A stretch of DNA of 52,072 nucleotides. Source: a virus. The position numbers and the translations under genes are program-made. The notes under the pieces were generated by a model. The model searched no databases and was not told the DNA's origin. It saw only the letters and a program-made list of their open reading frames with translations. Positions within the stretch are counted from its first letter, which is position 1. Every line of letters starts with the position of its first letter. Shown piece by piece: positions 1 through 49,829 of this stretch. The DNA is taken from the IMG/VR virus record IMGVR_UViG_3300013947_000055, positions 1 to 52,072 of that record; one strand, given 5' to 3'.

Positions 1-77
1 ATGGGCAAGCGCAGCCTGAAGGAAAAGAACTGAAAAATCACGAAAAGGTGCGATAGGGGTAGCTCCCAACAAGGAGC
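1..77. repeat. Terminal direct repeat, copy 1 (identical to 51996..52072); contig closes into a circle
   Basis: Both ends read atgggcaagcgcagcctgaaggaaaagaactgaaaaatcacgaaaaggtgcgataggggtagctcccaacaaggagc; bases 1..33 are the 3' end of the CDS that starts at 51369. Confidence 0.95.
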
Positions 78-126: not shown

Positions 127-155
127 TTTACATTCCCGAATCTTTGGAGCATAAT
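127..155 (+). promoter_or_regulatory. Sigma-70-type promoter (TTTACA-N17-CATAAT) of the conserved TTTACnTTyCCGAAT family
   Basis: -35 tttaca 127..132, 17-nt spacer ttcccgaatctttggag, -10 cataat 150..155; same spacer core (TTCCGAAT) as minus-strand promoters at 23.5, 38.6 and 46.5 kb. Confidence 0.6.
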
Positions 156-185
156 TTTAACCATACTGAGAAAGGAGATTTTCGT

Positions 186-767
186 ATGCTTTACGATCTC
201 AACACCGAGCAGGAGCGGAAAGACTTCCTCCTGGAGCTGTTGGAAAAGTCCCATGTCCCCGTGCAGACCTTCCCTTATTATTGGCTATGCTCTACAGACT
301 TCTTCAGAGCGCCCGCATCCCGTAAGTACCACGCCGCTTACGAGGGTGGTCTCTTTGAGCACAGCATGAATGTGGCAAGGCAGCTCGTACAGATGACCTT
401 GGCTGGACTTACCTCACCATGGGGTAGACCCGAAAGCCCAGTGATCATTGGTGTGCTGCATGATGTCACCAAGATTGGTCTGTATGCTCCTGGACGCGGC
501 GTCAATCCTGACACTGGCGAGCAAGAGCTATACGTCAAGAACCCTGAGTACAAGACCTATGGCGGGCACGGAGCTGATTCTGTACTCAAGCTCAAGGAGA
601 TCATGATGCTTACCCCTGAAGAGGAGGCCTGTATCCGCTACCACATGGGAGCCTATGAAACAGCAGACTGGGAGGCCTATGGCAATGCTATCAAGCAGTT
701 CCCGAACGTCCTCTGGACGCATACGGCGGATATGTATGCCGCCAAGGTGATGGAGGCGAATGTATAA
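186..767 (+). CDS. HD-domain phosphohydrolase
   Basis: RBS aaaggag (171..177) before ATG 186; the ORF-track TTG start at 144 lies inside the promoter. Motifs KYHAAYEGGLFEHS and GVLHDVTK match the H...HD metal site of HD hydrolases. Confidence 0.6.
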   Translation: MLYDLNTEQERKDFLLELLEKSHVPVQTFPYYWLCSTDFFRAPASRKYHAAYEGGLFEHSMNVARQLVQMTLAGLTSPWGRPESPVIIGVLHDVTKIGLYAPGRGVNPDTGEQELYVKNPEYKTYGGHGADSVLKLKEIMMLTPEEEACIRYHMGAYETADWEAYGNAIKQFPNVLWTHTADMYAAKVMEANV

Positions 768-1459
768 TGTCTTACTACTACCATCCGGACAGCGTCCGCT
801 ACATTAACAAGCGTATGCGCAGCATTACCAACCTGATCCTCATCATTACTGCTGGCCTGTTGGGTTTTATCGTCGGCTGCTACATAACAATCAGTGCACA
901 GTTCCAGACCCTTCAGCAGGAGGTGGAGGAAGTCCTTCAGACGTCCTCTGAAGTCCTTCAGGAGACACGGGAGCTTCAGCAGGAACTTATGTACCCAGCC
1001 GAGCAAACTGACGTCCTCGAGGACGAGATCGTCATCGAAGAGTCCCTCGTGTTCAACGACCCCGTGTATGACCAGCCCGCTACCATCCCCGACCTCGGCT
1101 GGGACTGGGACTACGTGCTGGGAGTGGTGGCTCAGGAGTGCTGGGGCGAACCTTATGACGGTCAGATGGCTGTGGCTCAGTGCATTCTGGACACGGCGCA
1201 GCTCCGTAACATGACCCCTGAAGAGGTTGTCAAGCTCCCCGGGAGATACGCTTCCCCTCTCGATTATGACAAGGCTAAGTCCGCTGTAGAGGATGCCTGT
1301 ATTGCCGTCTTCATCCTGGGAGAGAGGATCACCCCCGAACCTATCGAGTACTTTTACTCTACGGCTGGAGGCAAGTACTCTCACTGGCATGAGACTGACC
1401 TCACTCATGTGATGACCATCGGTAATCACAAGTTCTTTAAGACTAAGGAGGCTTTATGA
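767..1459 (+). CDS. Membrane-anchored SleB/CwlJ-like cell-wall hydrolase
   Basis: TAATG overlap with upstream gene; N-terminal TM helix ITNLILIITAGLLGFIVGCYITI; acidic coiled-coil linker; GVVAQECWGEPYDGQMAVAQCILDT resembles the Hydrolase_2 (SleB) core. Confidence 0.5.
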   Translation: MSYYYHPDSVRYINKRMRSITNLILIITAGLLGFIVGCYITISAQFQTLQQEVEEVLQTSSEVLQETRELQQELMYPAEQTDVLEDEIVIEESLVFNDPVYDQPATIPDLGWDWDYVLGVVAQECWGEPYDGQMAVAQCILDTAQLRNMTPEEVVKLPGRYASPLDYDKAKSAVEDACIAVFILGERITPEPIEYFYSTAGGKYSHWHETDLTHVMTIGNHKFFKTKEAL

Positions 1460-2466
1460 AGACCAAGCCGAACGATACCCCCTATTGTGGCGTAAACCAG
1501 TTCAAGATCCACGGTGCTCATCCCAAAGTCAACAACACCAACCTGAGAATCCTGTACAACTACATTCAGCGCCGCTATCAGGTTCACCTTCGTAAGGACG
1601 TGCTCAAGTTATCTGCACCATGGACGTCCGATACCATCCTTGCAGAGTATAGGTTCACCAACGTCCGGCGTGAGCACGACAGAGAGACCAGATGGCTTAT
1701 TGAGCACATCACCTCCAACAGAAAGCTGTCCTACGTAGACAAGATCTACAACTGTGTCCTATTCCGGCTGTATAACAAGCACCAGACTGCAGAACTACTT
1801 GGCTTACCTATCAAGTTCTCTGACGGCAACTTCGACCCTGAGAATTATGATGGTGTCTGGCAGGATGCCTTGGACGAGGATCCCAAACGAGTCTTCTTTA
1901 CGGGCGCATTCATGACCTCTGGTATGAAGCGCGTTCTCAGTCAGTACGTGCCAGAGGATCTGGGCGGGGACATTGCAGAAATGCGTCCCCTCTGGTTTAT
2001 GAAGTACCTTACCGAGCGCAACTTTGCGGGTATGTTGTCCTTCTGTGCTGATCAGAGCGAGGCCTATGAGCAGATCGCCGCTTACAATGGTATCGGCCGA
2101 TTCCTGGCCTACCAGATCTTTGTGGACTTTACCTACATAGAGGACTTCCCATACTCGGAGAATGAGTTCACGGTAGCCGGTATTGGCTGCAAGCGTGGTA
2201 TCAAGTATCTGTTTACCGATAGGGATCACCTGAATTACGAGGAGTGCCTGTTCTGGCTGCGAGACAACCTCGAAGACCTGTTTGCTAAACACCTTGGCAA
2301 GGACTTTGACCCTAAGACCCTCTTCTGGGATCTCCCTGAGGAAGACCGTTACATGAACGTCATGAGTCTGGAGAACTGTATGTGTGAGCTGTCCAAGTAC
2401 CTCAAGCTGATGCACGGTACAGGGCGTCCCCGTAAAAAGTACGTTCCCAGCGAGGAGGATTTATGA
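1456..2466 (+). CDS. aGPT-Pplase-like DNA base hypermodification protein (alpha-glutamyl/putrescinyl thymine pyrophosphorylase family)
   Basis: ATGA overlap with upstream gene; APWTSDTILAEYRFTNVRREHDRETRW matches my recollection of the family N-terminal signature (PWT-D-IL-YRF-NV-RE-DR-T). Confidence 0.5.
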   Translation: MKTKPNDTPYCGVNQFKIHGAHPKVNNTNLRILYNYIQRRYQVHLRKDVLKLSAPWTSDTILAEYRFTNVRREHDRETRWLIEHITSNRKLSYVDKIYNCVLFRLYNKHQTAELLGLPIKFSDGNFDPENYDGVWQDALDEDPKRVFFTGAFMTSGMKRVLSQYVPEDLGGDIAEMRPLWFMKYLTERNFAGMLSFCADQSEAYEQIAAYNGIGRFLAYQIFVDFTYIEDFPYSENEFTVAGIGCKRGIKYLFTDRDHLNYEECLFWLRDNLEDLFAKHLGKDFDPKTLFWDLPEEDRYMNVMSLENCMCELSKYLKLMHGTGRPRKKYVPSEEDL

Positions 2467-3275
2467 TCCCTGTATTTGTACCATCTTACCGGCGTCCTGA
2501 CGCCAAGTTCCTGCGGCGCAGCATGAACCAGAAGTTCCCGCTCTATGTCTTTGTCCGCAAGGAGGAGAAGGAAGCCTACTCCTGGATCAAAGCCAGACCC
2601 AACACCACCCTCGTCCTCATATCCAACGTGTCCAACATAGGTGAGACTCGCAGGGTCATGTTCAACTATGCAGTACACAAGGGCTTCGACAAGATCATCA
2701 TGCTCGACGATGACGTTACCCGACTTGACCTCTCCATGGTTGACCCAAAGTCCGGGAAGGTCAAGGCCTCCGGCAATGTCATCGGTTATGTGGAGGATTG
2801 GCATAAGGTGCTGCTGTGTTGGGAGGCAATCTGGACTGACGAAGCTATGCTGGGTGCAAGTTACCGTCCCTTTAGCTGGTCTCTTACCGAGGATGAGATC
2901 CCTATCCTCCGCAGATCCCAGCTCCAACAGGCTGTGGGGATCAACGTCAAGGCCATCCACAAGGCCGGTCTGAATTACCAGAGTAACGACCTTGTAGGCA
3001 ATGAAGATCTCTTCCTTCAGTTGGAGTGTTACCAGAAGGGACTGGAATGTGTCAAAACTAATGCAATCCAGTATGACTGTCCGGCCATGGGCGCGGGAAC
3101 AGGCGGTTGCAATGCGTCCGAGCTCGGCTCTATTCAGCAGAAGCAGCACAAGAGAGTAGCTCAGTTCGTGTTGGCCTGTAAGGATCCTACCCTTATCAAG
3201 ATCGCTAAGACTCGGTCAGGTGTGGAATCCGTCAAGTTCAACTGGAAAGCAATCAAATTCATCATGGAGGACTAA
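2463..3275 (+). CDS. GT-A-fold glycosyltransferase-like protein (TET/JBP-associated glycosyltransferase-like)
   Basis: ATGA overlap with upstream gene; N-terminal beta-strand IPVFVPSYRRP, DxD-type motif IIMLDDDV, later GNEDLF acidic motif. Confidence 0.45.
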   Translation: MIPVFVPSYRRPDAKFLRRSMNQKFPLYVFVRKEEKEAYSWIKARPNTTLVLISNVSNIGETRRVMFNYAVHKGFDKIIMLDDDVTRLDLSMVDPKSGKVKASGNVIGYVEDWHKVLLCWEAIWTDEAMLGASYRPFSWSLTEDEIPILRRSQLQQAVGINVKAIHKAGLNYQSNDLVGNEDLFLQLECYQKGLECVKTNAIQYDCPAMGAGTGGCNASELGSIQQKQHKRVAQFVLACKDPTLIKIAKTRSGVESVKFNWKAIKFIMED

Positions 3276-3278
3276 GAA

Positions 3279-3761
3279 ATGAATACTGACAAGCAATGGC
3301 TTGATATGGCATATAAGTACGCTATCGCTCACTCAGGTTGCCAGAAGGTCTCAGTAGGGTGTGTCATTACCAAGGGAGTCAACGGTACTGAAACTACTGC
3401 CAGTATGGGCGCAAACCGTACTCTTCCGCAGAACTGCAAGCTCATGGGATGCTGGCGTAAACAGATCCATGGGAATGACAGTAAAGCTCACCGTGGACCG
3501 GCTGATTGCATGGCTCTACACAGTGAGATCGACGCTTTAGCTATGGCAGCTCGTAACGGTGTGAGAGTGTTTGGCTCCACGGTCTATGTGACCCGCTACC
3601 CATGTGAGGCCTGTGCCCGAGCTCTCTGTGCTGCTGGAGTGGCTGAGGTCATTTATGGCGGTACAGCCGAGATCTCTATCATGACTGAACACATTTTCCG
3701 CAGCAACTGTGTAAAAGTACGTCACATCACCGACTGGATGGACGACAACTCTGACCGTTAA
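3279..3761 (+). CDS. dCMP/cytidine deaminase-family zinc enzyme
   Basis: RBS ggagg; HSEIDAL (H-x-E) and PCEACARAL (PCxxC) zinc/catalytic motifs; 160 aa. Confidence 0.8.
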   Translation: MNTDKQWLDMAYKYAIAHSGCQKVSVGCVITKGVNGTETTASMGANRTLPQNCKLMGCWRKQIHGNDSKAHRGPADCMALHSEIDALAMAARNGVRVFGSTVYVTRYPCEACARALCAAGVAEVIYGGTAEISIMTEHIFRSNCVKVRHITDWMDDNSDR

Positions 3762-3771
3762 GGAGACCTAT

Positions 3772-4350
3772 ATGAGTCACACAAAATACCTTACCAGCAC
3801 GCATCTCCAGATCCTAAAGAAAGCCCGTGACACCTACGGTGAGACCAACCAGATTCTGGTCTCCTGTGAAGAGCTGACTGAGCTTGCAGCCGTATGTGCC
3901 AAGTATCCCCGCTACACTGACCATGAGAAAGCTCACAACGACTTGTACGTCAAGGCACTGGATGAGGTCGCTGACGTGCTCATTGTCCTTGACCATGTGA
4001 TCAACATTTTTGACATCAAGCCCTATGACCTTCAGCAGCGCATCCATGGCAAGGTGAGCCGTCTTGAGCACTGGATGAACACATCTTCCAGCATGGAGCA
4101 GACCACCGTCGACAGAGAGGTTCCTGGACAGACTTCCCTTGAGGACTACAAGTGCCAGTCTTGTGTGTTTAAGAGCACTCCCGACTACATCTTCCCCTGT
4201 TCAGACTGCCACAACTTTGATCGCTACGTGAAAGCTACCCCGTGTGTAGGTTGTGCTCACAACGGTGACTATAAGCAGCTCAAAGAGGGCGGCGCTTGCG
4301 CTGAGTGCGTGAAAGATCCCGGCTGCAGATTCGTTAAAAAGGAGAACTAA
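3772..4350 (+). CDS. MazG-like all-alpha NTP pyrophosphohydrolase fused to a Cys-rich (multi-CxxC) C-terminal domain
   Basis: RBS aaggag; CEELTELAAV (EExxE) and LDEVADVLIVL (E..AD) motifs; C-terminus CQSC..CSDC..CVGC..CAEC. Confidence 0.6.
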   Translation: MSHTKYLTSTHLQILKKARDTYGETNQILVSCEELTELAAVCAKYPRYTDHEKAHNDLYVKALDEVADVLIVLDHVINIFDIKPYDLQQRIHGKVSRLEHWMNTSSSMEQTTVDREVPGQTSLEDYKCQSCVFKSTPDYIFPCSDCHNFDRYVKATPCVGCAHNGDYKQLKEGGACAECVKDPGCRFVKKEN

Positions 4351-7580: not shown

Positions 7581-7960
7581 ACAGAGTACCAGAAACTGCA
7601 AACACCTATGGTGTCTGTTGGTACTGTGGGAATACTGAAGGTCCGTTTGAGGTAGATCATGTATTCCCAAAGAGTTTAAGAAAAGACAATAGAAGGACTA
7701 ATCTGGTATGTTCCTGTAGAAAATGTAACAGAGAAAAGGGAGATAAAGCTCTGAGCTTTTTAGACCTGGAAGGAGAACCAGGATGGAGAGATCCCGATGT
7801 TATTGAGCAAGTTATAGATACCTATGCTCGTTTCTGTAGTGCTTTTGAGGAGGCACTTCCAGAAAAGTATGCTTCCTGGATCAAAAATCCCTTTGAGTCT
7901 TCTCATGTAAAATCTTTTAAGGAGGAACTTTCTCATGAGCTACCAGTTTGCCACGATTGA
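7577..7960 (+). CDS. Free-standing HNH endonuclease
   Basis: CWYCGNTEGPFEVDHVFPKS...NLVCSCRKCNREKGDK = classic HNH (CxxC...DH...N...CxxCN). Confidence 0.85.
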   Translation: MNRVPETANTYGVCWYCGNTEGPFEVDHVFPKSLRKDNRRTNLVCSCRKCNREKGDKALSFLDLEGEPGWRDPDVIEQVIDTYARFCSAFEEALPEKYASWIKNPFESSHVKSFKEELSHELPVCHD

Positions 7961-10001
7961 CATTGAAACTACTGGTCTTAACCGGTACAAAGACCGTATT
8001 ACATGGATTGGCGTCGGGCTTGCCAAAACTGTTGATGATGACCTGTCTAAGATTCTCATCTACGATGGCTCCAGCGAGGCTGATATGCGCAAGTTCCGTA
8101 ACGTCATGAAGCACGTCCGGGAAGCCAAGGCCAAGACTGTGTTCCAGAACGGTAAATTCGACACCCTCTTCATCGAGCACCATCTCGGTCTCAAGATCCC
8201 CATCCATGAAGACACGATGCTGATGGGTACAGCGTACGATCTTGTCGCTGAGCACGGTCTTAAAGCCATGGCTAAATCCTACCTTGGTGTACCTGACTGG
8301 GACATCAAGAAGAAGGACAAGCTCAGCGGTGATAAGGATACCATTGTTCCCTACCTGAAGTGTGACGTCAAGTACACATGGCAGCTCTATCAGTACCTGT
8401 GCTGCAACATGACCTCCCGACAGATGAAGCTCTACCGGGAGCTGCTCAGACCCGCTTATAGAGCATACAGAGACATTGAGCGCAATGGCCTCTACATTGA
8501 CCTTGATGCCTTACGGTCTGTACGCAAGAAGTACAATACTCAGGAGAAGAAGCTGCTTGCAGAGCTCAACAAGCACGCAAAGATCAACTGGAATAGCTCT
8601 GCACAGGTGGCAAAAGTGTTCTACGAACAGGAGAAAATGCCCATCATCAACTGGACAGCCAAGGGAGCTCCATCCATTGCTGCTGACGTTCTTAAGGAAC
8701 TCTCCATGCAGGGATATGAGACCCCGAAACTGCTGCTTGAGTACAAAGACGCTGCTACTCGTAACAAAATGTTCCTCAATCGTTGGGAGGACGACTGCTA
8801 TGAGAGCCGCATCCACCCGAGCTTCAATCTTACCAACGTGGTCTCAGGCAGAACAAGCTGTCTTACTGGGGATACTCCAGTGATGATTCCAGGGGGGTAT
8901 AAGCCCATTAAAGACATCAAAGTTGGAGACCTTGTGTATGGGTTTGACGAGAACCTAAAACCAAGACTATGCAAGGTCTCTTTTAGTGGGTGTACAGGAG
9001 TACGAGATGATGTGTACAGAGTTTGGTATAAGTCTCAAGGGACTCATGAGCTGAAGTACATAGACGCTACTTCTGATCATCTTGTACGGCTTACCTCTGG
9101 AGACTACCGAAGAGTTGATCAGTTGCATTGTAAAAAGAGAGATAGAGACCATGTACTTGCAATAGAACGTGGGTTCAAAGGAAGCAGAGAAAATCCACGT
9201 GGATATAGGATTTATCCAACAGGATGTGACACAGAGTTAGAGCATGTCTTTATCTTTAAGGAGCTACATGGGTACACTCCAGAGCATGTGCACCACAAAG
9301 ATGAAAATCCTCTGAATGATGAACCTGAGAATCTCATTGGACTCTCCGTAAGTGATCACGCAAGACTCCACATTCAGGAAAAGGGTGCTGACTGGCATAA
9401 GAAAGGAAATGCAGCTTCCTTAAAGACACGACAGAGTAAGGAATATAAAGAGTCCCTACATAGCTCAATTATGGAGTCCCGTTTATCCAAGAAAGACCTT
9501 GTAAAGGCTCTTAAAGAGGGTAACGGTCTGGTAGGAGCTGCTAAACTCCTTGGGAGAGACATCGGCTTTGTTGGTAATCGGATGAAGTACTATGGAGTAA
9601 CCTATGATGGTCGTTCTCATCGTAAAAAGAATAACCACACCATTTGGAAAGTAGAAAAACTTCCAGGAAAGTATGGAGTGTATGACATTTCTGTACCGGA
9701 AACTGAATGCTTTATTGCTAATGGAATCTGTGTCCATAACTGTAACAATCCCAACCTCCAGCAAGTACCCAGAACCAAGGACATCCGAGGTCTGTTTGCG
9801 GGCGCTCCAGGCATGATCCTCTTCGAGGCGGACTACTCTCAGTTGGAGCTACGCATTGCTGCTCACTACGCCAACGAGAAGACCATGCTGGACATTTACC
9901 GTAACAATGGTGATATTCATACTGAGACAGCCAAACTCTTTACCAACGGTCGCGCTCCTACTAAGGAGGAGAGAGGGAAAGCCAAGGCCGTGAATTTCGG
10001 T
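7935..10001 (+). CDS. DNA polymerase I (family A), exon 1, including an in-frame intein (8859..9740)
   Basis: RBS aaggagg; Exo I ATIDIETTG, Exo II NGKFDTLF, Exo III YLKCDVKY; motif A ILFEADYSQLELRIAAH; ends KAKAVNFG (first half of motif B). The TAA at 10002..10004 is intron sequence. Confidence 0.9.
8859..9740 (+). mobile_element. Intein (294 codons) with HNH homing-endonuclease domain, inserted in SGRTS|CNNPNLQQVP
   Basis: Starts CLTGDTPV (block A), TSDH (block B), VYDISVPETECFIANG (block F), ends GICVHN followed by +1 Cys; internal HVHHKDENPLNDEPENLIGLSVSDHARLH. Confidence 0.85.
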
Positions 10002-10633
10002 TAACCTACAAAGTAAGGCCGAATTAAAATCCCCTCAAAACGGTTGACCCTAAACGGAAACATATGGGAATCCCGTGCCTGTGTAAAAGCAGTGTGTAAC
10101 GACTTATCATGAATCGCTATCCTATGGATAAATCAATCGAATTCATGTATACGGGGGACAACGAAATCTGTGTAAGAAAGGAGGTATCTTGTAATGGCTT
10201 ATGCAAAAGTAACCTGTACAATCTGTGGTAAACAGTTCCAGCAAAAGAGCTGGAATCAGCATTTATGCTCTGATAAGTGTAGAACTGAGTTCTACGCGAG
10301 AAAAGGGCTTACTCGTATCTATGAGAATGGTAAATACGTAAAACATGGGTATGATCAAAAAGGAGAAAAGAATAACGCTTGGAAATATGGTTGTGCTTAT
10401 CGTCATCTTATTTCTATGGAACACTGTGAATGGTGTGGATCTACTAAGAACTTACTGGTACACCATAAGGATGGAGATCATAAACATAATGAAGTAAGCA
10501 ATCTGGTATGTCTTTGTAAAAGATGTCATCAGCAGTACCATTGCAAGAGAGATTCTCTCGGGAGATACACTACACATCGTTGAAGGTATAGTCTAGACCC
10601 CTAATAAATATCGGGAAACCGAGGGTATTATCG
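10002..10633 (+). mobile_element. Group I intron (632 nt) splitting polymerase motif B (NFG|FLYGM)
   Basis: Exon 1 ends in T (10001) that can form a U-G pair within P1: exon ttcggt (9996..10001) with intron gccgaa (10018..10023). Intron ends in G (10633). GAAA-tetraloop hairpin tcgg-gaaa-ccga 10611..10622. Joining 10001 to 10634 restores the frame and KAVNFGFLYGM. Confidence 0.75.
10194..10583 (+). CDS. Intron-encoded HNH homing endonuclease
   Basis: Own RBS aaaggagg; CTICGK...CSDKC zinc finger; LLVHHKDGDHKHNEVSNLVCLCKRCHQQYH HNH motif. Confidence 0.85.
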   Translation: MAYAKVTCTICGKQFQQKSWNQHLCSDKCRTEFYARKGLTRIYENGKYVKHGYDQKGEKNNAWKYGCAYRHLISMEHCEWCGSTKNLLVHHKDGDHKHNEVSNLVCLCKRCHQQYHCKRDSLGRYTTHR

Positions 10634-11155
10634 TTTCTATATGGTATGCAAGCAAAGAAGTTCGTCAAGTATGCTCTGGACAGCTATGGTCAAGTCTTTA
10701 CTCAGCGAGAGGCTGAGCACATCCGTGACCTGTTCTTTGCAAAGTATGCTCGGCTGTTACCTTGGCATAAGGAACAGGAAGATCTCTGTGAAATGCAGGG
10801 CGGCGTGGCGAATATGTTTGGTCGCTTCCGCAAGCTCCCTCTCATCTATTCCGCAAACAAGTGGGAACGGGCAAGTGCAGCTCGCCGTGCTATCAATACT
10901 CCAGTTCAGGGTTCAGGGTCTGATCTACTGATCTCTGCTGTGACCCAGATTAATAGGGAGCTCAAAGGTGTGGCATGGATCGGCGCTACTGTACACGACT
11001 CCATTATCGGTGAGTGCCGAGTTGAGGACAAGGACTTTGTGGATGAGACCATTCGCAGGGTCATGAAGCACCCTAAGGTCTTGGATGACTTTGGTGTTGA
11101 GCTCAGAGTGCCCTTGGATGTGGACATCGGATGGGGTCCTTGGGGAACTCACTAA
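10634..11155 (+). CDS. DNA polymerase I (family A), exon 2
   Basis: In-frame FLYGMQAKKF completes motif B; motif C ATVHDSIIGE; the ORF-track ATG at 10646 is internal to the exon. Confidence 0.8.
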   Translation, partial: FLYGMQAKKFVKYALDSYGQVFTQREAEHIRDLFFAKYARLLPWHKEQEDLCEMQGGVANMFGRFRKLPLIYSANKWERASAARRAINTPVQGSGSDLLISAVTQINRELKGVAWIGATVHDSIIGECRVEDKDFVDETIRRVMKHPKVLDDFGVELRVPLDVDIGWGPWGTH

Positions 11156-14577: not shown

Positions 14578-14625
14578 ACTCCAGTCTGCATAAAGGGCTT
14601 CCCACCTCAGTATTTACCATTCTAA

Positions 14626-14645
14626 GGGGGAGCACAAGCTCCCCC
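14626..14645 (+). terminator. GC hairpin (gggggagc-acaa-gctccccc)
   Basis: Perfect 8-bp stem with tetraloop, 49 nt after the stop codon; same GGGGG/CCCCC style as 11802..11817. Confidence 0.45.
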
Positions 14646-14664
14646 TCACATAAAGGAGACTATC

Positions 14665-15045
14665 ATGGACAAGATTAAGATCCACGAGCAGCTCTGCAAG
14701 GAAATGCATGAGCTGTACGAACGCAAGAATGCAGACTACGGGGATAGTTTTGCTCAACTCCGCAAGCGTTACCCGAACTTTGTCTGTATGCGCCTGTTTG
14801 ATAAGCTCAACCGTCTGGATACTGTCATCCAGCCTGAGTACGCGCTCAAGGTCTCTGATGAGACTGTTGAAGATACCCTCATGGACATTGCCAACTATGC
14901 CATCATGGAGCTGACTGAGCGTAGAGCAGCTCGTGAGGGGCTGAAGGAATCTATGTTTGCACAGGACGGCTGTAAGCCCTGCAATGAATCGATCAGGCCT
15001 CCTAACAAGTTGCCGGTGAACCTGACGACAGGAGGTTACAGATGA
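14665..15045 (+). CDS. DUF1599 (nucleotide modification associated domain 1), all-alpha NTP-PPase-like
   Basis: RBS aaaggag; ERKNADYGDSF, RLFDKLNRLDTV, EDTLMDIANYAIMEL match my recollection of DUF1599; translationally coupled (ATGA) to the ThyA-family gene. Confidence 0.65.
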   Translation: MDKIKIHEQLCKEMHELYERKNADYGDSFAQLRKRYPNFVCMRLFDKLNRLDTVIQPEYALKVSDETVEDTLMDIANYAIMELTERRAAREGLKESMFAQDGCKPCNESIRPPNKLPVNLTTGGYR

Positions 15046-15770
15046 TTTCTATCTATCAGGGCAGAAGCGTCAATGATGTCTGGCAACAGGCATTCGCAGA
15101 CCTCATCAAACAGGCTTCTGAGGGCTTTGAGAATGGCTCTCGGGATGGTGCAGTGGTCGGTGAAGTCATCAATGCTGCATTCTGTGTCGAAGACCCTACC
15201 CGTAACATTGTCACCAGTAAGTACCGCAAACTGCCTATGCGCTACGCAGTTGGTGAGCTGCTGTGGTATCTGTCTGGGTCTAACAAGACGACAGACATTG
15301 CTCAGTTCGCTCCTAAGTGGAATGAGCTCTCTGATGATGGTGTCCACGCAAACTCCGCCTATGGATACCGCATCGGCAAGAAGTTCGGCTTTGATCAGTG
15401 GGCTTATGCGGTTGATCTGCTCCGCAAAGACCCTGATAGTCGTCAGGCGGTTATCCACATTAAGGACGCTGACAATGCCAAGACCAAGGATCTGCCTTGC
15501 ACGGTCTACCTCCAGTTCCTGATCCGTGAAGGTAAGCTCCACATGATGGTGCACATGAGATCCAACGACATTTGGATGGGTGTTCCTTACGACATGTTCA
15601 GTTTCTGCTCCATGCAGATGCTGATGGCTATGCAGCTTGGAGTACAAGTCGGCAGTTACACTCATTATGCAGGCTCTCTGCACCTCTACAAGAGGGACTA
15701 TGAGACTGCCAAACACAACATGGAGGAGCTGAACCCCTATGGCAATACCCAGAGACGAGAAGCTCATTAA
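15042..15770 (+). CDS. Thymidylate synthase-family pyrimidine C5 (hydroxy)methylase, predicted dCMP-specific
   Basis: Catalytic Cys in DLPCTVY (15498..15500); ELLWYLSG, NSAYGYR, DPDSRQAV, MRSND; Asp184 (gac 15591..15593) in GVPYDMFS at the position of ThyA Asn177 / T4 dCMP hydroxymethylase Asp179. Confidence 0.75.
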   Translation: MISIYQGRSVNDVWQQAFADLIKQASEGFENGSRDGAVVGEVINAAFCVEDPTRNIVTSKYRKLPMRYAVGELLWYLSGSNKTTDIAQFAPKWNELSDDGVHANSAYGYRIGKKFGFDQWAYAVDLLRKDPDSRQAVIHIKDADNAKTKDLPCTVYLQFLIREGKLHMMVHMRSNDIWMGVPYDMFSFCSMQMLMAMQLGVQVGSYTHYAGSLHLYKRDYETAKHNMEELNPYGNTQRREAH

Positions 15771-16110
15771 GGTTATGGTCAAAGTCCTCAATGAGGACAG
15801 GGACGAACTGCGGTGGGAGCATCTTTGCTATGCTCCCGCCCTCCTGTACCTCAAGTTCTTAACTGTCAAGGATATTGAGCGCTTTGAACTGGCTGAGTAC
15901 CTGTCTAAGTGGGCTATGTTCGACTTTAATATAGACCTACAAATGACAAAAAGTAGTGACCTTGCACTTCTTAAGGAGCTCATTGTAAATCGTTACAAAA
16001 AGATGTTCCCTTACCTTGCAAGGTCTTTTAATGACAGCCATGTAGACCACCAAGGATGGGTGAGAATCTGGCTGACAGACCACATGGAAAGGGAGCTGAA
16101 GAGAAAATGA
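15739..16110 (+). CDS. Hypothetical protein (start uncertain; an alternative ATG is at 15775)
   Basis: ORF in the operon with 32-nt overlap on the upstream gene; no motif recognised. Confidence 0.45.
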   Translation: MAIPRDEKLIKVMVKVLNEDRDELRWEHLCYAPALLYLKFLTVKDIERFELAEYLSKWAMFDFNIDLQMTKSSDLALLKELIVNRYKKMFPYLARSFNDSHVDHQGWVRIWLTDHMERELKRK

Positions 16111-16532
16111 CTGAACCTAACTGGAAGAAGACCCTGCCTAAGATCGTAGCCGTGGACTTTGATGGTACACTGGTAAAGGATGCCTACCCTAACGTAGGTG
16201 AACCTATTTGGTCTATGATAAACTATTGCAAAGCCCTCAGAAAGGCCGGGGTCAAGCTAATTCTCTGGACCAGCAGAGACAATGAGACTCCTGACAGAGC
16301 ACTTGACAGAGCTGTAAACTGGTGCAAGGACAATGGTCTTGAGTTTGATGCAGTAAATGAGAATCTGCCTGAGCTCAAGGAAATTTTCCAGAATGATACC
16401 CGTAAGGTCTATGCAGACCTGTACATTGACGACAAGGCTGTGTTTGCTGGTCAGCATCCTATTCATTGGCTACATAGGATTGGTCTCAGCTGGGATGCTT
16501 TGGTAAAGGGGTTTTATGGGCTTAGAAAGTAA
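16107..16532 (+). CDS. HAD-superfamily phosphatase
   Basis: ATGA coupling at 16107; motif I VAVDFDGTL, motif II LWTSRD, motif IV YIDDK. Confidence 0.6.
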   Translation: MTEPNWKKTLPKIVAVDFDGTLVKDAYPNVGEPIWSMINYCKALRKAGVKLILWTSRDNETPDRALDRAVNWCKDNGLEFDAVNENLPELKEIFQNDTRKVYADLYIDDKAVFAGQHPIHWLHRIGLSWDALVKGFYGLRK

Positions 16533-47963: not shown

Positions 47964-48524
47964 ATGTACTATGGCAACATCAAGGACTGTGACATCGCCA
48001 ACGGAGAGGGGGTAAGAATTTCCCTGTTCGTGTCGGGATGCACAAACCACTGCCGAGGCTGCTTCCAGCCCGAGACGTGGGACTTCAAGTATGGCAGTCC
48101 ATTCACTTTCAAGGTACAGGATGACATCCTGAGTATGCTCGCACCATCCTATATCGATGGTCTCACCGTCCTGGGAGGCGAACCCTTTGAGCCGTCCAAT
48201 CAGCACTCCCTCCTGCCGTTCCTGGAGCTGGTACACAACATTTACCCCGACAAGACCATCTGGATGTACACAGGCTTTACCTACGAGGACCTCATCACTC
48301 CCGGAGCTCATCCTCACACTGCTATCACCAGCAAGATCCTCGGTCTCATCGACGTCCTTGTAGATGGTCCATTCGACATCGACCAGAGCGACATCTCACT
48401 CAGGTTTAGAGGCTCACGCAACCAGCGCATCATCGACGTACCACCTACGCTCTCCACGGGTCACGTAGTCCTTTACGACGAGGTCGCACATCATCCCTGG
48501 ATGACCAAGCACTCCCAGTTCTGA
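47964..48524 (+). CDS. nrdG: Anaerobic ribonucleoside-triphosphate reductase activating protein (radical SAM)
   Basis: RBS taaggagg; DCDIANGEGVRISLFVSGCTNHCRGCFQPETW (CxxxCxxC) and GLTVLGGEP, collinear with T4 NrdG as I recall it. Confidence 0.85.
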   Translation: MYYGNIKDCDIANGEGVRISLFVSGCTNHCRGCFQPETWDFKYGSPFTFKVQDDILSMLAPSYIDGLTVLGGEPFEPSNQHSLLPFLELVHNIYPDKTIWMYTGFTYEDLITPGAHPHTAITSKILGLIDVLVDGPFDIDQSDISLRFRGSRNQRIIDVPPTLSTGHVVLYDEVAHHPWMTKHSQF

Positions 48525-49454: not shown

Positions 49455-49829
49455 ATGACAGACTTAGAACTCACCAACCACATTCACGACATCCTCAAGG
49501 ATTTAGGATGCCCCATCAGCATGAGTGGCTTCGATTATGTCACCTACGGCGTCAAGCTCATGTACAATTCCTCACGCAGACTTGCCATCACCAGAGAGCT
49601 GTATCCCGCCATCGCATCTCAGTATAACACCACGGACACTAGGGTCGAGCGTTGCATCAGAACCTTTGTCCAGACCACTCTGGACCGAGGCTCCTATGTG
49701 GACATTCACAAGGTGTTCGGCAATGTCTTCCGTGACAAGTCCGGCACTATTGTCAATGGTGACTTCTTGTATGGTCTCAAGTATGAGCTTGAGCGCCGGA
49801 TCCAGGCAGAGGAGAAGAGCTGTGATTAA
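49455..49829 (+). CDS. Spo0A C-terminal (effector/DNA-binding) domain protein without receiver domain
   Basis: ITRELYPAIASQYNTTDTRVERCIRTFVQTT matches the Spo0A_C recognition helix region (ITK-LYPDIAKK-NTT-SRVERAIRHAIE). Confidence 0.8.
   Translation: MTDLELTNHIHDILKDLGCPISMSGFDYVTYGVKLMYNSSRRLAITRELYPAIASQYNTTDTRVERCIRTFVQTTLDRGSYVDIHKVFGNVFRDKSGTIVNGDFLYGLKYELERRIQAEEKSCD

What the first reader, a model, noticed from the sequence alone, without database searches (positions are those of the whole stretch)
1456..3275. Coupled aGPT-Pplase-like and GT-A glycosyltransferase-like genes: candidate undescribed DNA base hypermodification pathway
Genes 1456..2466 and 2463..3275 are translationally coupled through ATGA overlaps and sit inside the early/replication arm.
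- The first protein carries APWTSDTILAEYRFTNVRREHDRETRW. I recognise this as the N-terminal signature of the alpha-glutamyl/putrescinyl-thymine pyrophosphorylase (aGPT-Pplase) family. That family was predicted by Iyer et al. 2013 and shown by Lee et al. 2018 to build thymidine hypermodifications on hydroxymethylated DNA.
- The second protein starts IPVFVPSYRRP and has IIMLDDDV. These are the beta1 strand and DxD elements of GT-A sugar transferases, as in TET/JBP-associated glycosyltransferases.

Described systems take one of two routes. T-even phages glycosylate 5hmC. phiW-14, SP10, ViI and M6 use aGPT-Pplase together with a P-loop 5-hmdU DNA kinase on 5hmU. Here both enzyme types are adjacent, I cannot recognise a dedicated 5-hmdU DNA kinase, and the only pyrimidine (hydroxy)methylase (15042..15770) looks cytosine-specific. 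That combination matches no pathway I know, so the virion DNA may carry an uncharacterised modified base.
Basis: partly seen in the sequence, partly recalled or inferred. Interest (0 to 1): 0.8.

Follow-up and report, generated by a model that had tools for sequence, protein, structure and literature searches.

The report
Reduced phage cytosine-hypermodification gene set
Two overlapping phage genes encode a DNA sugar-transferase and an uncharacterised relative of thymine-hypermodifying enzymes, inside a pathway built to make hydroxymethyl-cytosine, so the viral DNA probably carries sugar-decorated cytosines and perhaps a further unknown change.

Summary
ORFs 1456..2466 (P1) and 2463..3275 (P2) are real, overlap by ATGA, and are under strong purifying selection.

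- **P1** belongs to Pfam HMUDK_hel, the former aGPT-Pplase clade 1. It is not the experimentally proven clade 2 transferase, and no function is assigned to clade 1.
- **P2** is a TAGT-family GT-A DNA glycosyltransferase with the R…DDD…ED signature.
- **The only ThyA homologue** (15042..15770) carries the three diagnostic residues of T4-type dCMP hydroxymethylases.
- **No P-loop 5-hm-pyrimidine DNA kinase or clade 2 transferase** is present.

The window is a reduced variant of an abundant phage lineage, probably infecting Clostridia. In that lineage P1, dCMP deaminase and a cytosine-type hydroxymethylase are core genes. TAGT, clade 2 transferase plus kinase, and radical-SAM genes come and go in cassettes.

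Most likely product: glycosylated 5hmC, a known kind of modification. P1 keeps the catalytic Cys/Glu motif and stays under purifying selection without a kinase, so it probably does something further to 5hmC DNA. That activity is unknown. Rating: a new variant of a known kind, moderately interesting.

The parts
1456..2466 (+). P1: standalone aGPT-Pplase clade 1 / HMUDK_hel protein (336 aa). All-helical, HhH-glycosylase-like fold. Conserved Glu306...Cys310-Glu311...Lys314 motif.
   Evidence: Pfam PF18723 E=1.9e-63 over residues 30-321. phrog_2396 E=4.9e-78. AF2 pLDDT 96.8. BFVD matches to SP10 gp186, PhiW-14, 'Pplase1 clade 1' and, remotely, AADT models. Best PDB fold match is PaMx11 gp46, but weak. 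hhalign places C310 on gp46 C247 and E306 on E243. Cys, Glu and Lys are each conserved in 79/81 family representatives. dN/dS 0.05.
2463..3275 (+). P2: TAGT-family GT-A DNA glycosyltransferase (270 aa) with R11, D82-D83-D84 and E181-D182.
   Evidence: Pfam PF20691 E=5.1e-14, 53 bits against a cut-off of 27.5. phrog_842 'beta-glucosyl-HMC-alpha-glucosyltransferase' E=5.8e-14. These residues are invariant in alignment A3 and match the R...DDD...ED(Y/F) signature of phage GT-A DNA glycosyltransferases. AF2 pLDDT 92. All top PDB fold hits are GT-A enzymes at probability 1.0. dN/dS 0.016.
3279..3761 (+). dCMP deaminase. With P1 it is a core gene of the lineage.
   Evidence: PF00383 E=1.4e-14 and phrog_174 E=9.7e-24. 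Found next to P1 in nearly all relatives.
3772..4350 (+). MazG-like NTP pyrophosphohydrolase with a Cys-rich tail. Candidate for excluding canonical dNTPs (for example dCTP).
   Evidence: phrog_2245 E=1.8e-11. Conserved in relatives. Substrate not determined.
15042..15770 (+). ThyA-family dCMP hydroxymethylase (predicted 5hm-dCMP synthase).
   Evidence: PF00303 E=8.7e-32. Best solved relative is MilA, a CMP hydroxymethylase, E=2.6e-33. Diagnostic residues are Asp at -3 from the catalytic Cys (equivalent to L143D), Asp169 retained, and Asp at the Asn177 position. Their meaning comes from PMC13326640.
14665..15045 (+). DUF1599 ('nucleotide modification associated domain 1'), overlapping the start of the hydroxymethylase gene.
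   Evidence: PF07659 E=4.1e-9 and phrog_1485 E=4.8e-24. Recurs upstream of the ThyA homologue in relatives.
14578..14664 (.). Empty cassette slot between DUF669 and DUF1599/ThyA homologue. Relatives carry AADT + kinase and/or TAGT + radical-SAM + dNMP kinase here.
   Evidence: Sak4-anchored census of 46 lineage contigs. The window has no AADT (best E 0.16-0.48, filters off) and no kinase.
144..767 (+). HD-domain phosphohydrolase upstream of the module. Possible nucleotide-pool enzyme; its membership of the pathway is uncertain.
   Evidence: phrog_28876 E=1e-26. Conserved upstream of P1 in close relatives.

Best explanation
The phage makes 5-hydroxymethyl-dCMP before replication, using a T4-type dCMP hydroxymethylase (15042..15770). 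A dCMP deaminase and MazG-like/HD nucleotide hydrolases shape the nucleotide pools. The phage incorporates 5hmC into its DNA. P2, a TAGT-family GT-A enzyme, then transfers a sugar from a host NDP-sugar onto the 5-hydroxymethyl group of 5hmC in DNA. The result is glycosyl-5hmC, which shields the genome from restriction.

P1 is a separate core enzyme of the lineage, not a dedicated partner of P2. It is a base-flipping, HhH-glycosylase-like protein of aGPT-Pplase clade 1 that keeps the Cys/Glu pair used by clade 2 enzymes for covalent attack on pyrimidine C6. It most likely performs a second, kinase-independent reaction on 5-hydroxymethyl-pyrimidine in DNA, here 5hmC. The product is unknown.

**Shown:** family memberships, folds, diagnostic residues, gene content, distribution, and selection.
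**Inferred:** substrates, order of steps, sugar identity, and any catalysis by P1.
For: **Hydroxymethylase.** It has the Asp(-3)/Asp169/Asp177 signature, identical to T4-like 5hm-dCMP synthases and MilA and different from the proven dUMP enzymes of SP10 and PaMx11, which have Asn177.

**P2.** Pfam TAGT above the curated cut-off, a GT-A fold, and the R...DDD...ED motif. It is the only glycosyltransferase in a complete genome. GT-A DNA glycosyltransferases are commonly found with ThyS homologues and dCMP deaminase.

**P1.**
- Strong PF18723 membership.
- C310, E311 and K314 are each conserved in 79/81 representatives, including the orthologues in SP10, PaMx11, CBA120 and Microbacterium phages.
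- C310 aligns with the catalytic Cys247 of gp46, and the fold is related to AADT models.
- P1 is present in relatives with or without a P1-adjacent TAGT, and with or without a kinase/AADT cassette.
- dN/dS is 0.05 between two genomes that both lack a kinase and AADT.
- P1 is intact in three or four kinase-less genomes whose P1 proteins are about 50% (L003, L009) to 94% (L010) identical to the window's.
- P1-family genes recur with cytosine-type hydroxymethylases in unrelated Microbacterium phages.
Against: - No dNMP kinase for 5hm-dCMP was found (T4 needs gp1). Relatives and Microbacterium phages encode one, so the level of 5hmC substitution here is uncertain.
- Clade 1 proteins were dispensable for in-vitro thymidine hypermodification and no activity has been shown for any member.
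- The homology between P1 and clade 2 is remote (hhalign E=0.015; Foldseek probability 0.6 to gp46), and P1 lacks the clade 2 Asp175 'FKDP' element.
- In the described systems the leaving group is a phosphate installed by a kinase. No such activation step is available here.
- The acceptor base and the sugar were not and cannot be determined from sequence.
- The deaminase could in principle convert 5hm-dCMP to 5hm-dUMP.
Confidence: 0.5

Rival explanations
1. P1 is a non-catalytic, or only substrate-presenting, DNA-binding and base-flipping adaptor, as the Pfam name 'kinase helical domain' implies. It hands 5-hydroxymethyl-pyrimidines to whichever small DNA-modifying enzyme the phage carries: the kinase in most phages, and the TAGT glycosyltransferase P2 here.
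For: P1-family domains are fused to the 5-HMUDK kinase in SP10 gp186, P0187 and L051. In PaMx11 the P1 homologue gp50 overlaps the kinase gene gp49. In the window P1 is translationally coupled to P2. In an unrelated uracil-type contig, L108, the genes TAGT, P1 and the hydroxymethylase are consecutive and no kinase is present.
Against: The near-invariant Cys-Glu aligned with the catalytic Cys of clade 2 is hard to explain for a pure adaptor. Kinases and GT-A DNA glycosyltransferases work without it in vitro or in vivo. In some relatives other genes separate P1 from the TAGT.
Confidence: 0.17
2. P1 is the long-missing enzyme that converts 5-hydroxymethyl-pyrimidine in DNA into the 5-methyl base (5hmU to T in PhiW-14, SP10 and ViI-type phages). 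It would use Cys addition at C6, loss of the hydroxyl or phosphate, and reduction of the exocyclic methylene. In this phage it would turn unglycosylated 5hmC into 5mC.
For: Lee 2018 states that in-situ conversion of 5hmdU to thymidine occurs and that its enzyme is unknown. Clade 1 is the one conserved, unassigned member of these systems. A clade 2 enzyme plus borohydride yields thymidine through the same methylene intermediate. P1 keeps the Cys/Glu motif.
Against: This is purely inferential. No reductant-binding motif was identified. The window has no kinase to activate the hydroxymethyl group. There is no evident benefit in making 5mC from 5hmC.
Confidence: 0.12
3. The DNA-level acceptor is 5hmU, not 5hmC. 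The cytosine-type hydroxymethylase makes 5hm-dCMP, the adjacent dCMP deaminase converts it to 5hm-dUMP, and P2 makes a base-J-like glycosyl-5hmU. P1 then works on 5hmU as in the described systems.
For: The dCMP deaminase is invariably linked to P1. P1, the kinase and AADT are otherwise known only from 5hmU systems. The TAGT family is related to the base-J glucosyltransferase. From memory, not tested here: T-even dCMP deaminases can accept 5-substituted dCMP.
Against: All proven 5hmU phages use an Asn177 hydroxymethylase, which is the simpler route. Asp177 is strictly conserved across more than 40 lineage contigs. T4 also pairs a dCMP deaminase with a dCMP hydroxymethylase simply to supply dTTP. 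That is established knowledge, and the ThyS/deaminase association is noted.
Confidence: 0.15
4. P2 does not act on DNA. It glycosylates a host surface polymer such as wall teichoic acid, and P1 is an unrelated relic.
For: Structural neighbours of P2 include teichoic-acid glycosyltransferases such as RmlT.
Against: P2 passes the curated TAGT cut-off and has the DNA-GT-A motif set. It lacks the extra domains of RmlT-type enzymes, being 270 aa against about 600 aa. It sits in the nucleotide-metabolism operon of an apparently lytic genome. Both genes are under strong purifying selection.
Confidence: 0.04

Closest known systems
T-even phage 5hmC pathway (T4 gp42 dCMP hydroxymethylase, gp56 dCTPase, Cd deaminase and DNA glucosyltransferases; the T6 TAGT-family second-glucose transferase)
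   Same: Pre-replicative hydroxymethylation of dCMP by a ThyA homologue with the same diagnostic residues. A dCMP deaminase and an NTP pyrophosphatase are present. Glycosylation happens after replication. P2 shares its Pfam/PHROG family with the T6 enzyme.
   Different: No dNMP kinase is recognisable. The single glycosyltransferase is GT-A (TAGT), not the GT-B alpha/beta-GT, so it must act as the base-proximal transferase. An extra clade 1 aGPT-Pplase gene is present. The host is probably a Clostridia-type Firmicute and the virion type is different.
Metavirome GT-A DNA glycosyltransferases (Burke 2021; Pyle 2023/2024) and the trypanosome base-J glucosyltransferase
   Same: GT-A fold and the R...DDD...ED motif. 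This family is frequently found next to ThyS homologues and dCMP deaminase.
   Different: The tested enzymes came from C5-MT/TET (post-replicative 5hmC) clusters. Here 5hmC is made before replication. The co-occurring clade 1 protein is not discussed in those papers.
Thymidine hypermodification systems of ViI/CBA120, M6/PaMx11, PhiW-14, SP10 and SH-Ab 15599 (dUMP hydroxymethylase + 5-HMUDK kinase + clade 2 AADT, with or without clade 1)
   Same: P1 is a homologue (24-38% identity) of ViI gp160/CBA120 orf156, PaMx11 gp50, PhiW-14 gp72 and SP10 gp186C. A dCMP deaminase and a ThyA-family hydroxymethylase are present.
   Different: The hydroxymethylase is cytosine-type (Asp177), not uracil-type. 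The window has no kinase and no clade 2 transferase. A TAGT glycosyltransferase is present instead.
Microbacterium phages such as Juanyo (Elerivirus)
   Same: The same toolkit in an unrelated phage group: clade 1 protein (gene 58), cytosine-type ThyA homologue (gene 49), TAGT glycosyltransferase (gene 45) and MazG.
   Different: The genes are dispersed rather than adjacent. A nucleotide kinase (gene 44) sits next to the glycosyltransferase. No DNA-modification chemistry was found for these phages in the library searched.

Membership tests
aGPT-Pplase clade 1 / Pfam PF18723 HMUDK_hel | Profile match above the curated threshold over the whole domain | tested here: met
   214.9 bits against a cut-off of 25; residues 30-321 match profile positions 4-277 of 281.
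aGPT-Pplase clade 1 / Pfam PF18723 HMUDK_hel | Family-conserved residues (PWT...FTNxRRxxD, GxGxFxAYQ..D, GPGC, ENCxCExxKY) | tested here: met
   All are present in P1. Conservation counts come from 81 representatives.
aGPT-Pplase clade 1 / Pfam PF18723 HMUDK_hel | All-helical HhH-glycosylase-like fold shared with SP10 gp186C and PhiW-14 gp72 | tested here: met
   AF2 pLDDT 96.8. BFVD matches at probability 1.0 and TM up to 0.91.
aGPT-Pplase clade 1 / Pfam PF18723 HMUDK_hel | Genomic association with (or fusion to) a P-loop 5-hmdU DNA kinase, PF18748 | tested here: not met
   No kinase in the window. A kinase is present in most relatives and fused to P1 in P0187, SP10 and L051.
aGPT-Pplase clade 1 / Pfam PF18723 HMUDK_hel | Occurrence in a 5hmU-producing phage (dUMP hydroxymethylase) | tested here: not met
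   The ThyA homologue has Asp177 (cytosine type) here and throughout the lineage.
Amino acid:DNA transferase (AADT, aGPT-Pplase clade 2, PF18724) | Profile match to PF18724 | tested here: not met
   Only PF18723 was reported at E<=0.1. The AADT HMM against P1 gives E=5.6.
Amino acid:DNA transferase (AADT, aGPT-Pplase clade 2, PF18724) | Essential catalytic Cys with a neighbouring Glu (gp46 Cys247/Glu243) | tested here: inconclusive
   hhalign aligns P1 C310/E306 with gp46 C247/E243, but the scores are weak: E=0.054 with a single sequence and 0.015 profile against profile. No 3D superposition was possible.
Amino acid:DNA transferase (AADT, aGPT-Pplase clade 2, PF18724) | Base-contacting Asp175 in the 'FKDP' motif | tested here: not met
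   P1 has 'AG(P/I)GC' at the aligned position.
Amino acid:DNA transferase (AADT, aGPT-Pplase clade 2, PF18724) | Transfer of an amine or hydroxyl nucleophile to 5-phosphomethyl-pyrimidine in DNA | not testable with these tools
   Requires biochemistry.
TAGT / phage GT-A DNA glycosyltransferases (PF20691) | Profile match above the curated threshold | tested here: met
   53.1 bits against a cut-off of 27.5; residues 2-204.
TAGT / phage GT-A DNA glycosyltransferases (PF20691) | GT-A fold | tested here: met
   AF2 pLDDT 92.1. 78 PDB matches at E<=1e-3; all of the top 50 listed are GT-A-fold enzymes, mostly glycosyltransferases.
TAGT / phage GT-A DNA glycosyltransferases (PF20691) | Active-site motifs R...DDD...ED(Y/F) | tested here: met
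   R11, D82-D84 and E181-D182 are invariant in A3. The motif definition is from Pyle et al.. The third element reads EDL-F.
TAGT / phage GT-A DNA glycosyltransferases (PF20691) | Neighbourhood containing a source of 5-hydroxymethyl-pyrimidine (TET/JBP or ThyS homologue) | tested here: met
   No TET/JBP is present. A ThyS-type dCMP hydroxymethylase lies 12 kb downstream in the same arm.
TAGT / phage GT-A DNA glycosyltransferases (PF20691) | Sugar transfer to 5hmC or 5hmU in DNA | not testable with these tools
   Requires an enzyme assay or nucleoside mass spectrometry.
T4-type dCMP hydroxymethylase (ThyA superfamily) | ThyA fold with a catalytic Cys | tested here: met
   PF00303 E=8.7e-32. The Cys aligns with C146.
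T4-type dCMP hydroxymethylase (ThyA superfamily) | Asp at the Asn177 position (dCMP rather than dUMP) | tested here: met
   VPYDMFSF against LPFNIASY.
T4-type dCMP hydroxymethylase (ThyA superfamily) | Acidic residue at the Leu143 position (hydroxymethyl rather than methyl product) | tested here: met
   KDLPC places Asp at -3 from the Cys, as in MilA (DVAC).
T4-type dCMP hydroxymethylase (ThyA superfamily) | Asp169 retained (Asn here would indicate a 5-hydroxy-dCMP synthase) | tested here: met
   RSND.
T-even-like complete C-to-5hmC replacement pathway | Phage dNMP kinase able to phosphorylate 5hm-dCMP | tested here: not met
   No kinase-like ORF was found in the whole genome. Relatives carry a dNK/thymidylate-kinase-like gene.
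T-even-like complete C-to-5hmC replacement pathway | dCTPase that excludes canonical dCTP | tested here: inconclusive
   MazG-like and HD-domain hydrolases are present, but their specificity is unknown and they show no similarity to the counterparts of known systems.

The most novel reading that the evidence does not exclude
Clade 1 aGPT-Pplases such as P1 are active, Cys-dependent DNA enzymes that work on 5-hydroxymethyl-cytosine and need no kinase. This abundant phage lineage, probably infecting gut Clostridia, performs on cytosine the chemistry so far known only for thymine: kinase + AADT + radical-SAM tailoring, combined with GT-A glycosylation. The window's virion DNA would then carry, besides glycosyl-5hmC, a second undescribed cytosine derivative made by P1, for example 5-(X-methyl)C, or 5mC made after replication from 5hmC.
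Probability: 0.25. Interest if true: 0.85.

Novelty: new variant of a known kind. Interest (0 to 1): 0.6.

Why it matters
**What is ordinary.** If only glycosyl-5hmC is made, this is one more member of a known anti-restriction strategy, now in a widespread lineage of phages that probably infect gut Clostridia.

**What deserves attention.** An enzyme family known only from thymine hypermodification and with no assigned function (clade 1 aGPT-Pplase/HMUDK_hel) is a conserved core gene of a lineage whose hydroxymethylase is cytosine-specific. It is kept under purifying selection even where the kinase and the clade 2 transferase are absent.

**Why this genome is useful.** It is a natural minimal system containing a hydroxymethylase, clade 1 and one glycosyltransferase. 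It could be used to:
- assign a function to clade 1;
- test the hypothesis that clade 1 is the unidentified enzyme converting hydroxymethyl-pyrimidine to methyl-pyrimidine in DNA;
- test whether kinase/AADT chemistry extends to cytosine in the sister genomes.

New DNA-modifying enzymes of this type have been turned into tools for mapping 5hmU and 5hmC. The modifications also determine phage sensitivity to restriction, type IV and CRISPR defences.

Tried and rejected
- **Nucleotide search:** megablast of the first 8 kb against about 50,000 phage genomes found no match.
- **NCBIfam:** no model hits P1 or P2.
- **Sequence search of the PDB:** nothing for P1 or P2.
- **Foldseek of P1 against the PDB:** only weak matches. 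No solved structure represents clade 1, so no active-site superposition was possible.
- **Search for a kinase:** Walker-A scan, filter-off phmmer with the 5-HMUDK domains, and Pfam on all remaining ORFs. None found.
- **Search for a clade 2 AADT:** none found.
- **Residue separating P1 orthologues of cytosine-type and uracil-type phages:** no consistent discriminating position.
- **Nucleotide-pool enzymes (HD, MazG, DUF1599, HAD) against those of PaMx11, CBA120, Juanyo and VPE25:** only the deaminases are related.
- **Agathobaculum phage AB434P2:** it has the closest annotated ThyA homologue, but its annotated genome layout differs and no P1-type gene is annotated; a direct search of it for P1 was planned but not run.
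- **5-hydroxy-dCMP synthase (RB69 type) for the ThyA homologue:** rejected because Asp169 is retained.
- **Reading 'P1/P2 form an obligate translationally coupled pair':** rejected because of the variable gene order in relatives.
- **Literature searches:** one was wasted on non-specific terms, and one found nothing on Microbacterium phage DNA chemistry.
- **Iyer et al. 2013 and the published Pyle et al. 2024:** not held in the library. The Pyle preprint was used instead.

Full report
**1. Observation**

The ATGA overlaps at 1456-1459 and 2463-2466 and strong Shine-Dalgarno sequences are visible in the DNA. The quoted peptide motifs are present.

The genes are real. Orthologues occur in many related viral contigs. 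Against the nearest relative, dN/dS is 0.05 for P1 and 0.016 for P2, at dS of about 0.4-0.6.

The window's ends repeat (at least 50 nt), so it is probably a complete, circularly assembled genome of about 52 kb. It has no close nucleotide relative among about 50,000 deposited phage genomes. A Spo0A C-terminal-domain gene points to a spore-forming Firmicutes host. Related contigs include sample names that look like gut metagenomes, though the source was not verified.

**2. What the two proteins are**

*P1.* P1 matches Pfam PF18723 'HMUDK_hel' at 1.9e-63 over residues 30-321, which leaves no room for another domain. Older annotations call the same family 'aGPT-Pplase1 / clade 1'.

Its cultured-phage homologues (24-38% identity) are:
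- ViI gp160/CBA120 orf156
- PaMx11 gp50
- PhiW-14 gp72
- the C-terminal half of SP10 gp186
- a Microbacterium phage protein

However, the enzymes that Lee et al. proved to be transferases are clade 2 (PF18724, AADT). Clade 1 proteins were in the original lysate mixes but were not required, and no function is assigned to them in the literature I could read.

*P2.* P2 passes the curated TAGT threshold and hits the PHROG of the T6 second-glucose transferase. It folds confidently as GT-A. It also has invariant R11, D82-D84 and E181-D182, which is the R...DDD...ED signature of phage and JGT-type DNA glycosyltransferases.

**3. The pathway around them**

The only ThyA homologue (15042..15770) has as its best solved relative the CMP hydroxymethylase MilA. 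Three diagnostic positions, taken from PMC13326640, classify it:

| ThyA position | What it decides | Window enzyme |
|---|---|---|
| Asn177 | Asp means dCMP substrate, Asn means dUMP | Asp |
| Leu143 | Asp/Glu means hydroxymethyl product, Leu means methyl | Asp (at -3 from the catalytic Cys) |
| Asp169 | Asn marks 5-hydroxy-dCMP synthases | Asp retained |

The window enzyme therefore has the T4-type 5hm-dCMP synthase signature. The proven dUMP hydroxymethylases of SP10 and PaMx11 have Asn177.

A dCMP deaminase, a MazG-like pyrophosphatase, an HD hydrolase and a DUF1599 protein complete a T4-like nucleotide module. No P-loop DNA kinase, dNMP kinase, clade 2 AADT, TET/JBP, second glycosyltransferase or sugar-nucleotide gene exists anywhere in the genome.

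**4. Evidence from relatives**

The window belongs to an abundant lineage of contigs of about 41-57 kb with conserved synteny. A Sak4-anchored census gave 46 contigs with both anchors.

Core genes: P1, the deaminase and a ThyA homologue that has the cytosine-type signature in the great majority of contigs where it could be read (Asp169 and Asp177 in all of those; four could not be parsed and three gave Ala at the -3 position).

Variable cassette in the slot between DUF669 and the ThyA homologue:

| Cassette content | Contigs |
|---|---|
| AADT + 5-HMUDK-like kinase (with or without DUF1599 or a dNMP kinase) | 21 |
| AADT alone | 3 |
| TAGT with or without radical-SAM/SPASM and dNMP kinase | 15 |
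| Kinase + dNMP kinase | 2 |
| AADT + kinase + TAGT + radical SAM | 1 |
| No enzyme cassette (the window and two others) | 3 |
| Radical-SAM-like ORF only (the window's 94-99% identical twin) | 1 |

Other findings from relatives:
- At least six contigs with a P2-type TAGT next to P1 also carry AADT + kinase.
- In some relatives a SleB-like or small ORF separates P1 from the TAGT.
- The commonest relatives have P1 followed by the deaminase with no glycosyltransferase between them.

Three conclusions follow:
- P1 and P2 are neighbours at an insertion hot-spot, not an obligate pair.
- The absence of a kinase is a derived or minority state.
- The lineage as a whole combines 'thymidine-type' enzymes (kinase, AADT, clade 1) with a cytosine-type hydroxymethylase.

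**5. Is P1 an enzyme?**

The family is large: 3,080 representatives at 50% clustering, almost all standalone proteins of 290-360 aa. A few are fused to a PF18748 kinase (P0187, SP10 gp186, L051). In PaMx11 the gene overlaps the kinase gene. These fusions and overlaps are presumably the reason for the Pfam name.

Evidence for catalysis:
- Alignment of 81 diverse members shows invariant R40, F67 and D75.
- The motif ...ENCxC310-E311xxK314Y is near-invariant: Cys, Glu and Lys are each present in 79/81.
- The AF2 model is excellent (pLDDT 96.8). Its best PDB match is the clade 2 enzyme PaMx11 gp46, but only weakly (probability 0.6, TM about 0.3).
- In the viral model library it matches clade 1 proteins strongly and AADT-domain proteins remotely (probability 1.0, TM about 0.5).
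- Profile-profile alignment (E=0.015) puts P1's HhH-like GIGxFLAYQ segment and 'DR..N....E306...C310' on gp46's 'DR..N....E243...C247'. Cys247 and the neighbouring Glu are the essential catalytic residues of clade 2.

P1 lacks the clade 2 Asp175 'FKDP' element and has a family-specific 'AGPGC' loop there.

I take this as moderate evidence that P1 is a catalytically competent, base-flipping, Cys-dependent enzyme rather than an inert helical domain. It is a different enzyme from AADT. P1 is under purifying selection between two genomes that both lack kinase and AADT. It is also intact in kinase-less genomes whose P1 proteins are about 50% identical to the window's. Both points argue for a kinase-independent role.

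**6. Which base?**

P1-family genes occur with uracil-type hydroxymethylases in PaMx11, Ackermannviridae-like contigs, and contigs including L054, L056, L086, L088, L091, L098-L103, L107 and L108. They occur with cytosine-type ones in this lineage, L052, L061 and Microbacterium phage Juanyo. I found no residue in P1 that tracks the base.

For the window, the parsimonious acceptor is 5hmC. A route through deamination of 5hm-dCMP to 5hm-dUMP cannot be excluded from sequence.

**7. Most likely mechanism**

- *Shown:* family membership, fold, motifs, gene content, distribution and selection.
- *Inferred:* dCMP is converted to 5hm-dCMP by the ThyA homologue. Host kinases make the triphosphate, which is a weak point because no phage dNMP kinase is present. 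5hmC is incorporated into DNA, and P2 transfers a sugar from a host NDP-sugar to give glycosyl-5hmC.
- P1 acts separately on 5-hydroxymethyl-pyrimidine in DNA, and its product is unknown.

Rival readings of P1 and of the pathway:
- P1 is an adaptor for P2 or the kinase. This is supported by the fusions and by a second, independent TAGT-P1-hydroxymethylase arrangement in the uracil-type contig L108.
- P1 is the unidentified enzyme that turns hydroxymethyl-pyrimidine in DNA into the methyl base. Lee 2018 says this enzyme is still unknown.
- The pathway feeds 5hmU rather than 5hmC.

**8. Comparison with what is known, and novelty**

The hydroxymethylase + deaminase + GT-A glycosyltransferase part is a new member of known kinds. 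T-even phages do the same with GT-B enzymes. GT-A DNA glycosyltransferases in ThyS/deaminase contexts have been catalogued from metagenomes.

Kinase or aG/PT-PPlase action on 5hmC has been proposed for a few TET contigs but never shown.

I did not find the following described anywhere:
- a clade 1 protein as a conserved core gene of a cytosine-type lineage;
- its persistence without a kinase or AADT;
- the lineage-wide mixing of AADT/kinase/radical-SAM and TAGT cassettes on a cytosine-type hydroxymethylase.

I therefore rate the finding a new variant of a known kind, with interest 0.6.

Noticed in passing
L013 15888-20487 and L031 10426-11265 (IMGVR_UViG_3300045988_165964); also L052 16970-20644: A distant relative carries a contiguous cluster: AADT (PF18724), 5-HMUDK kinase (PF18748), TAGT-like, radical SAM/SPASM, TAGT, dNMP kinase, then a ThyA homologue with the cytosine-type signature (KDTPC..RSND..LPYD). 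A clade 1 gene lies upstream. This suggests amino-acid- and sugar-type hypermodification built on 5hmC rather than 5hmU.
   Followed up: partly
Loci L109-L166 (Sak4-anchored relatives); window slot 14578..14664: The region between DUF669 and the ThyA homologue is a hot-spot with at least eight cassette variants: AADT+kinase, AADT alone, TAGT+rSAM, TAGT+dNK, kinase+dNK, all four, an rSAM-like ORF alone, and empty. This looks like rapid modular exchange of DNA-modification genes within one phage lineage.
   Followed up: partly
L108 7405-10020 (IMGVR_UViG_3300031951_002195): In an unrelated 15-kb contig, TAGT, a clade 1 protein and a uracil-type (Asn177) hydroxymethylase are consecutive and overlapping, and no kinase or AADT is present on the contig. 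This is a second, independent TAGT + clade 1 pairing.
   Followed up: no
L109 (IMGVR_UViG_3300029248_000010), between DUF669 and DUF1599: The window's nearest relative (94-99% protein identity) has about 1 kb of extra sequence here, with a radical-SAM-like ORF that the window lacks (Sak4-to-ThyA distance 2105 nt against 1127 nt).
   Followed up: no
window 7935..11155: The family-A DNA polymerase is interrupted. The 689-aa ORF contains an intein-splicing/HNH insertion, followed by a free-standing HNH gene (10194..10583) and a separate C-terminal polymerase fragment (10646..11155). Relatives have an uninterrupted polymerase of about 568 aa.
   Followed up: no
window 49455..49829: A phage-encoded Spo0A C-terminal (DNA-binding) domain protein (PF08769, E=1.8e-22). 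It implies a spore-forming Firmicutes host and possible interference with sporulation control.
   Followed up: no
window 47964..48524: A Fer4_12/radical-SAM activase-like protein (PF13353, E=2.2e-46; NrdG/QueE-like) with no recognisable partner enzyme nearby.
   Followed up: no
window 16056..16532: A small HAD-like phosphatase (sub-threshold Pfam hits) is conserved just downstream of the hydroxymethylase in relatives (for example L031 11545-11901). It could be a nucleotidase belonging to the pool-shaping module.
   Followed up: no
L001 (Microbacterium phage Juanyo ON526972), genes 42-58: Actinobacteriophages of this group combine a clade 1 protein, a cytosine-type ThyA homologue, a TAGT glycosyltransferase, a kinase-like gene and MazG. 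I found no published DNA-modification chemistry for them in the library searched.
   Followed up: partly
BFVD hit Q56ED1 (Aeromonas phage 31 ORF233c, 795 aa): A T4-like Aeromonas phage encodes a large protein with a clade 1-like domain (TM 0.72 to the P1 model). This is another possible link between the family and cytosine-modifying phages.
   Followed up: no
window 1..50 and the 3' end: The first and last 50 nt (or more) of the window recur elsewhere in it, consistent with a terminal overlap from circular assembly, which would mean the genome is complete.
   Followed up: partly
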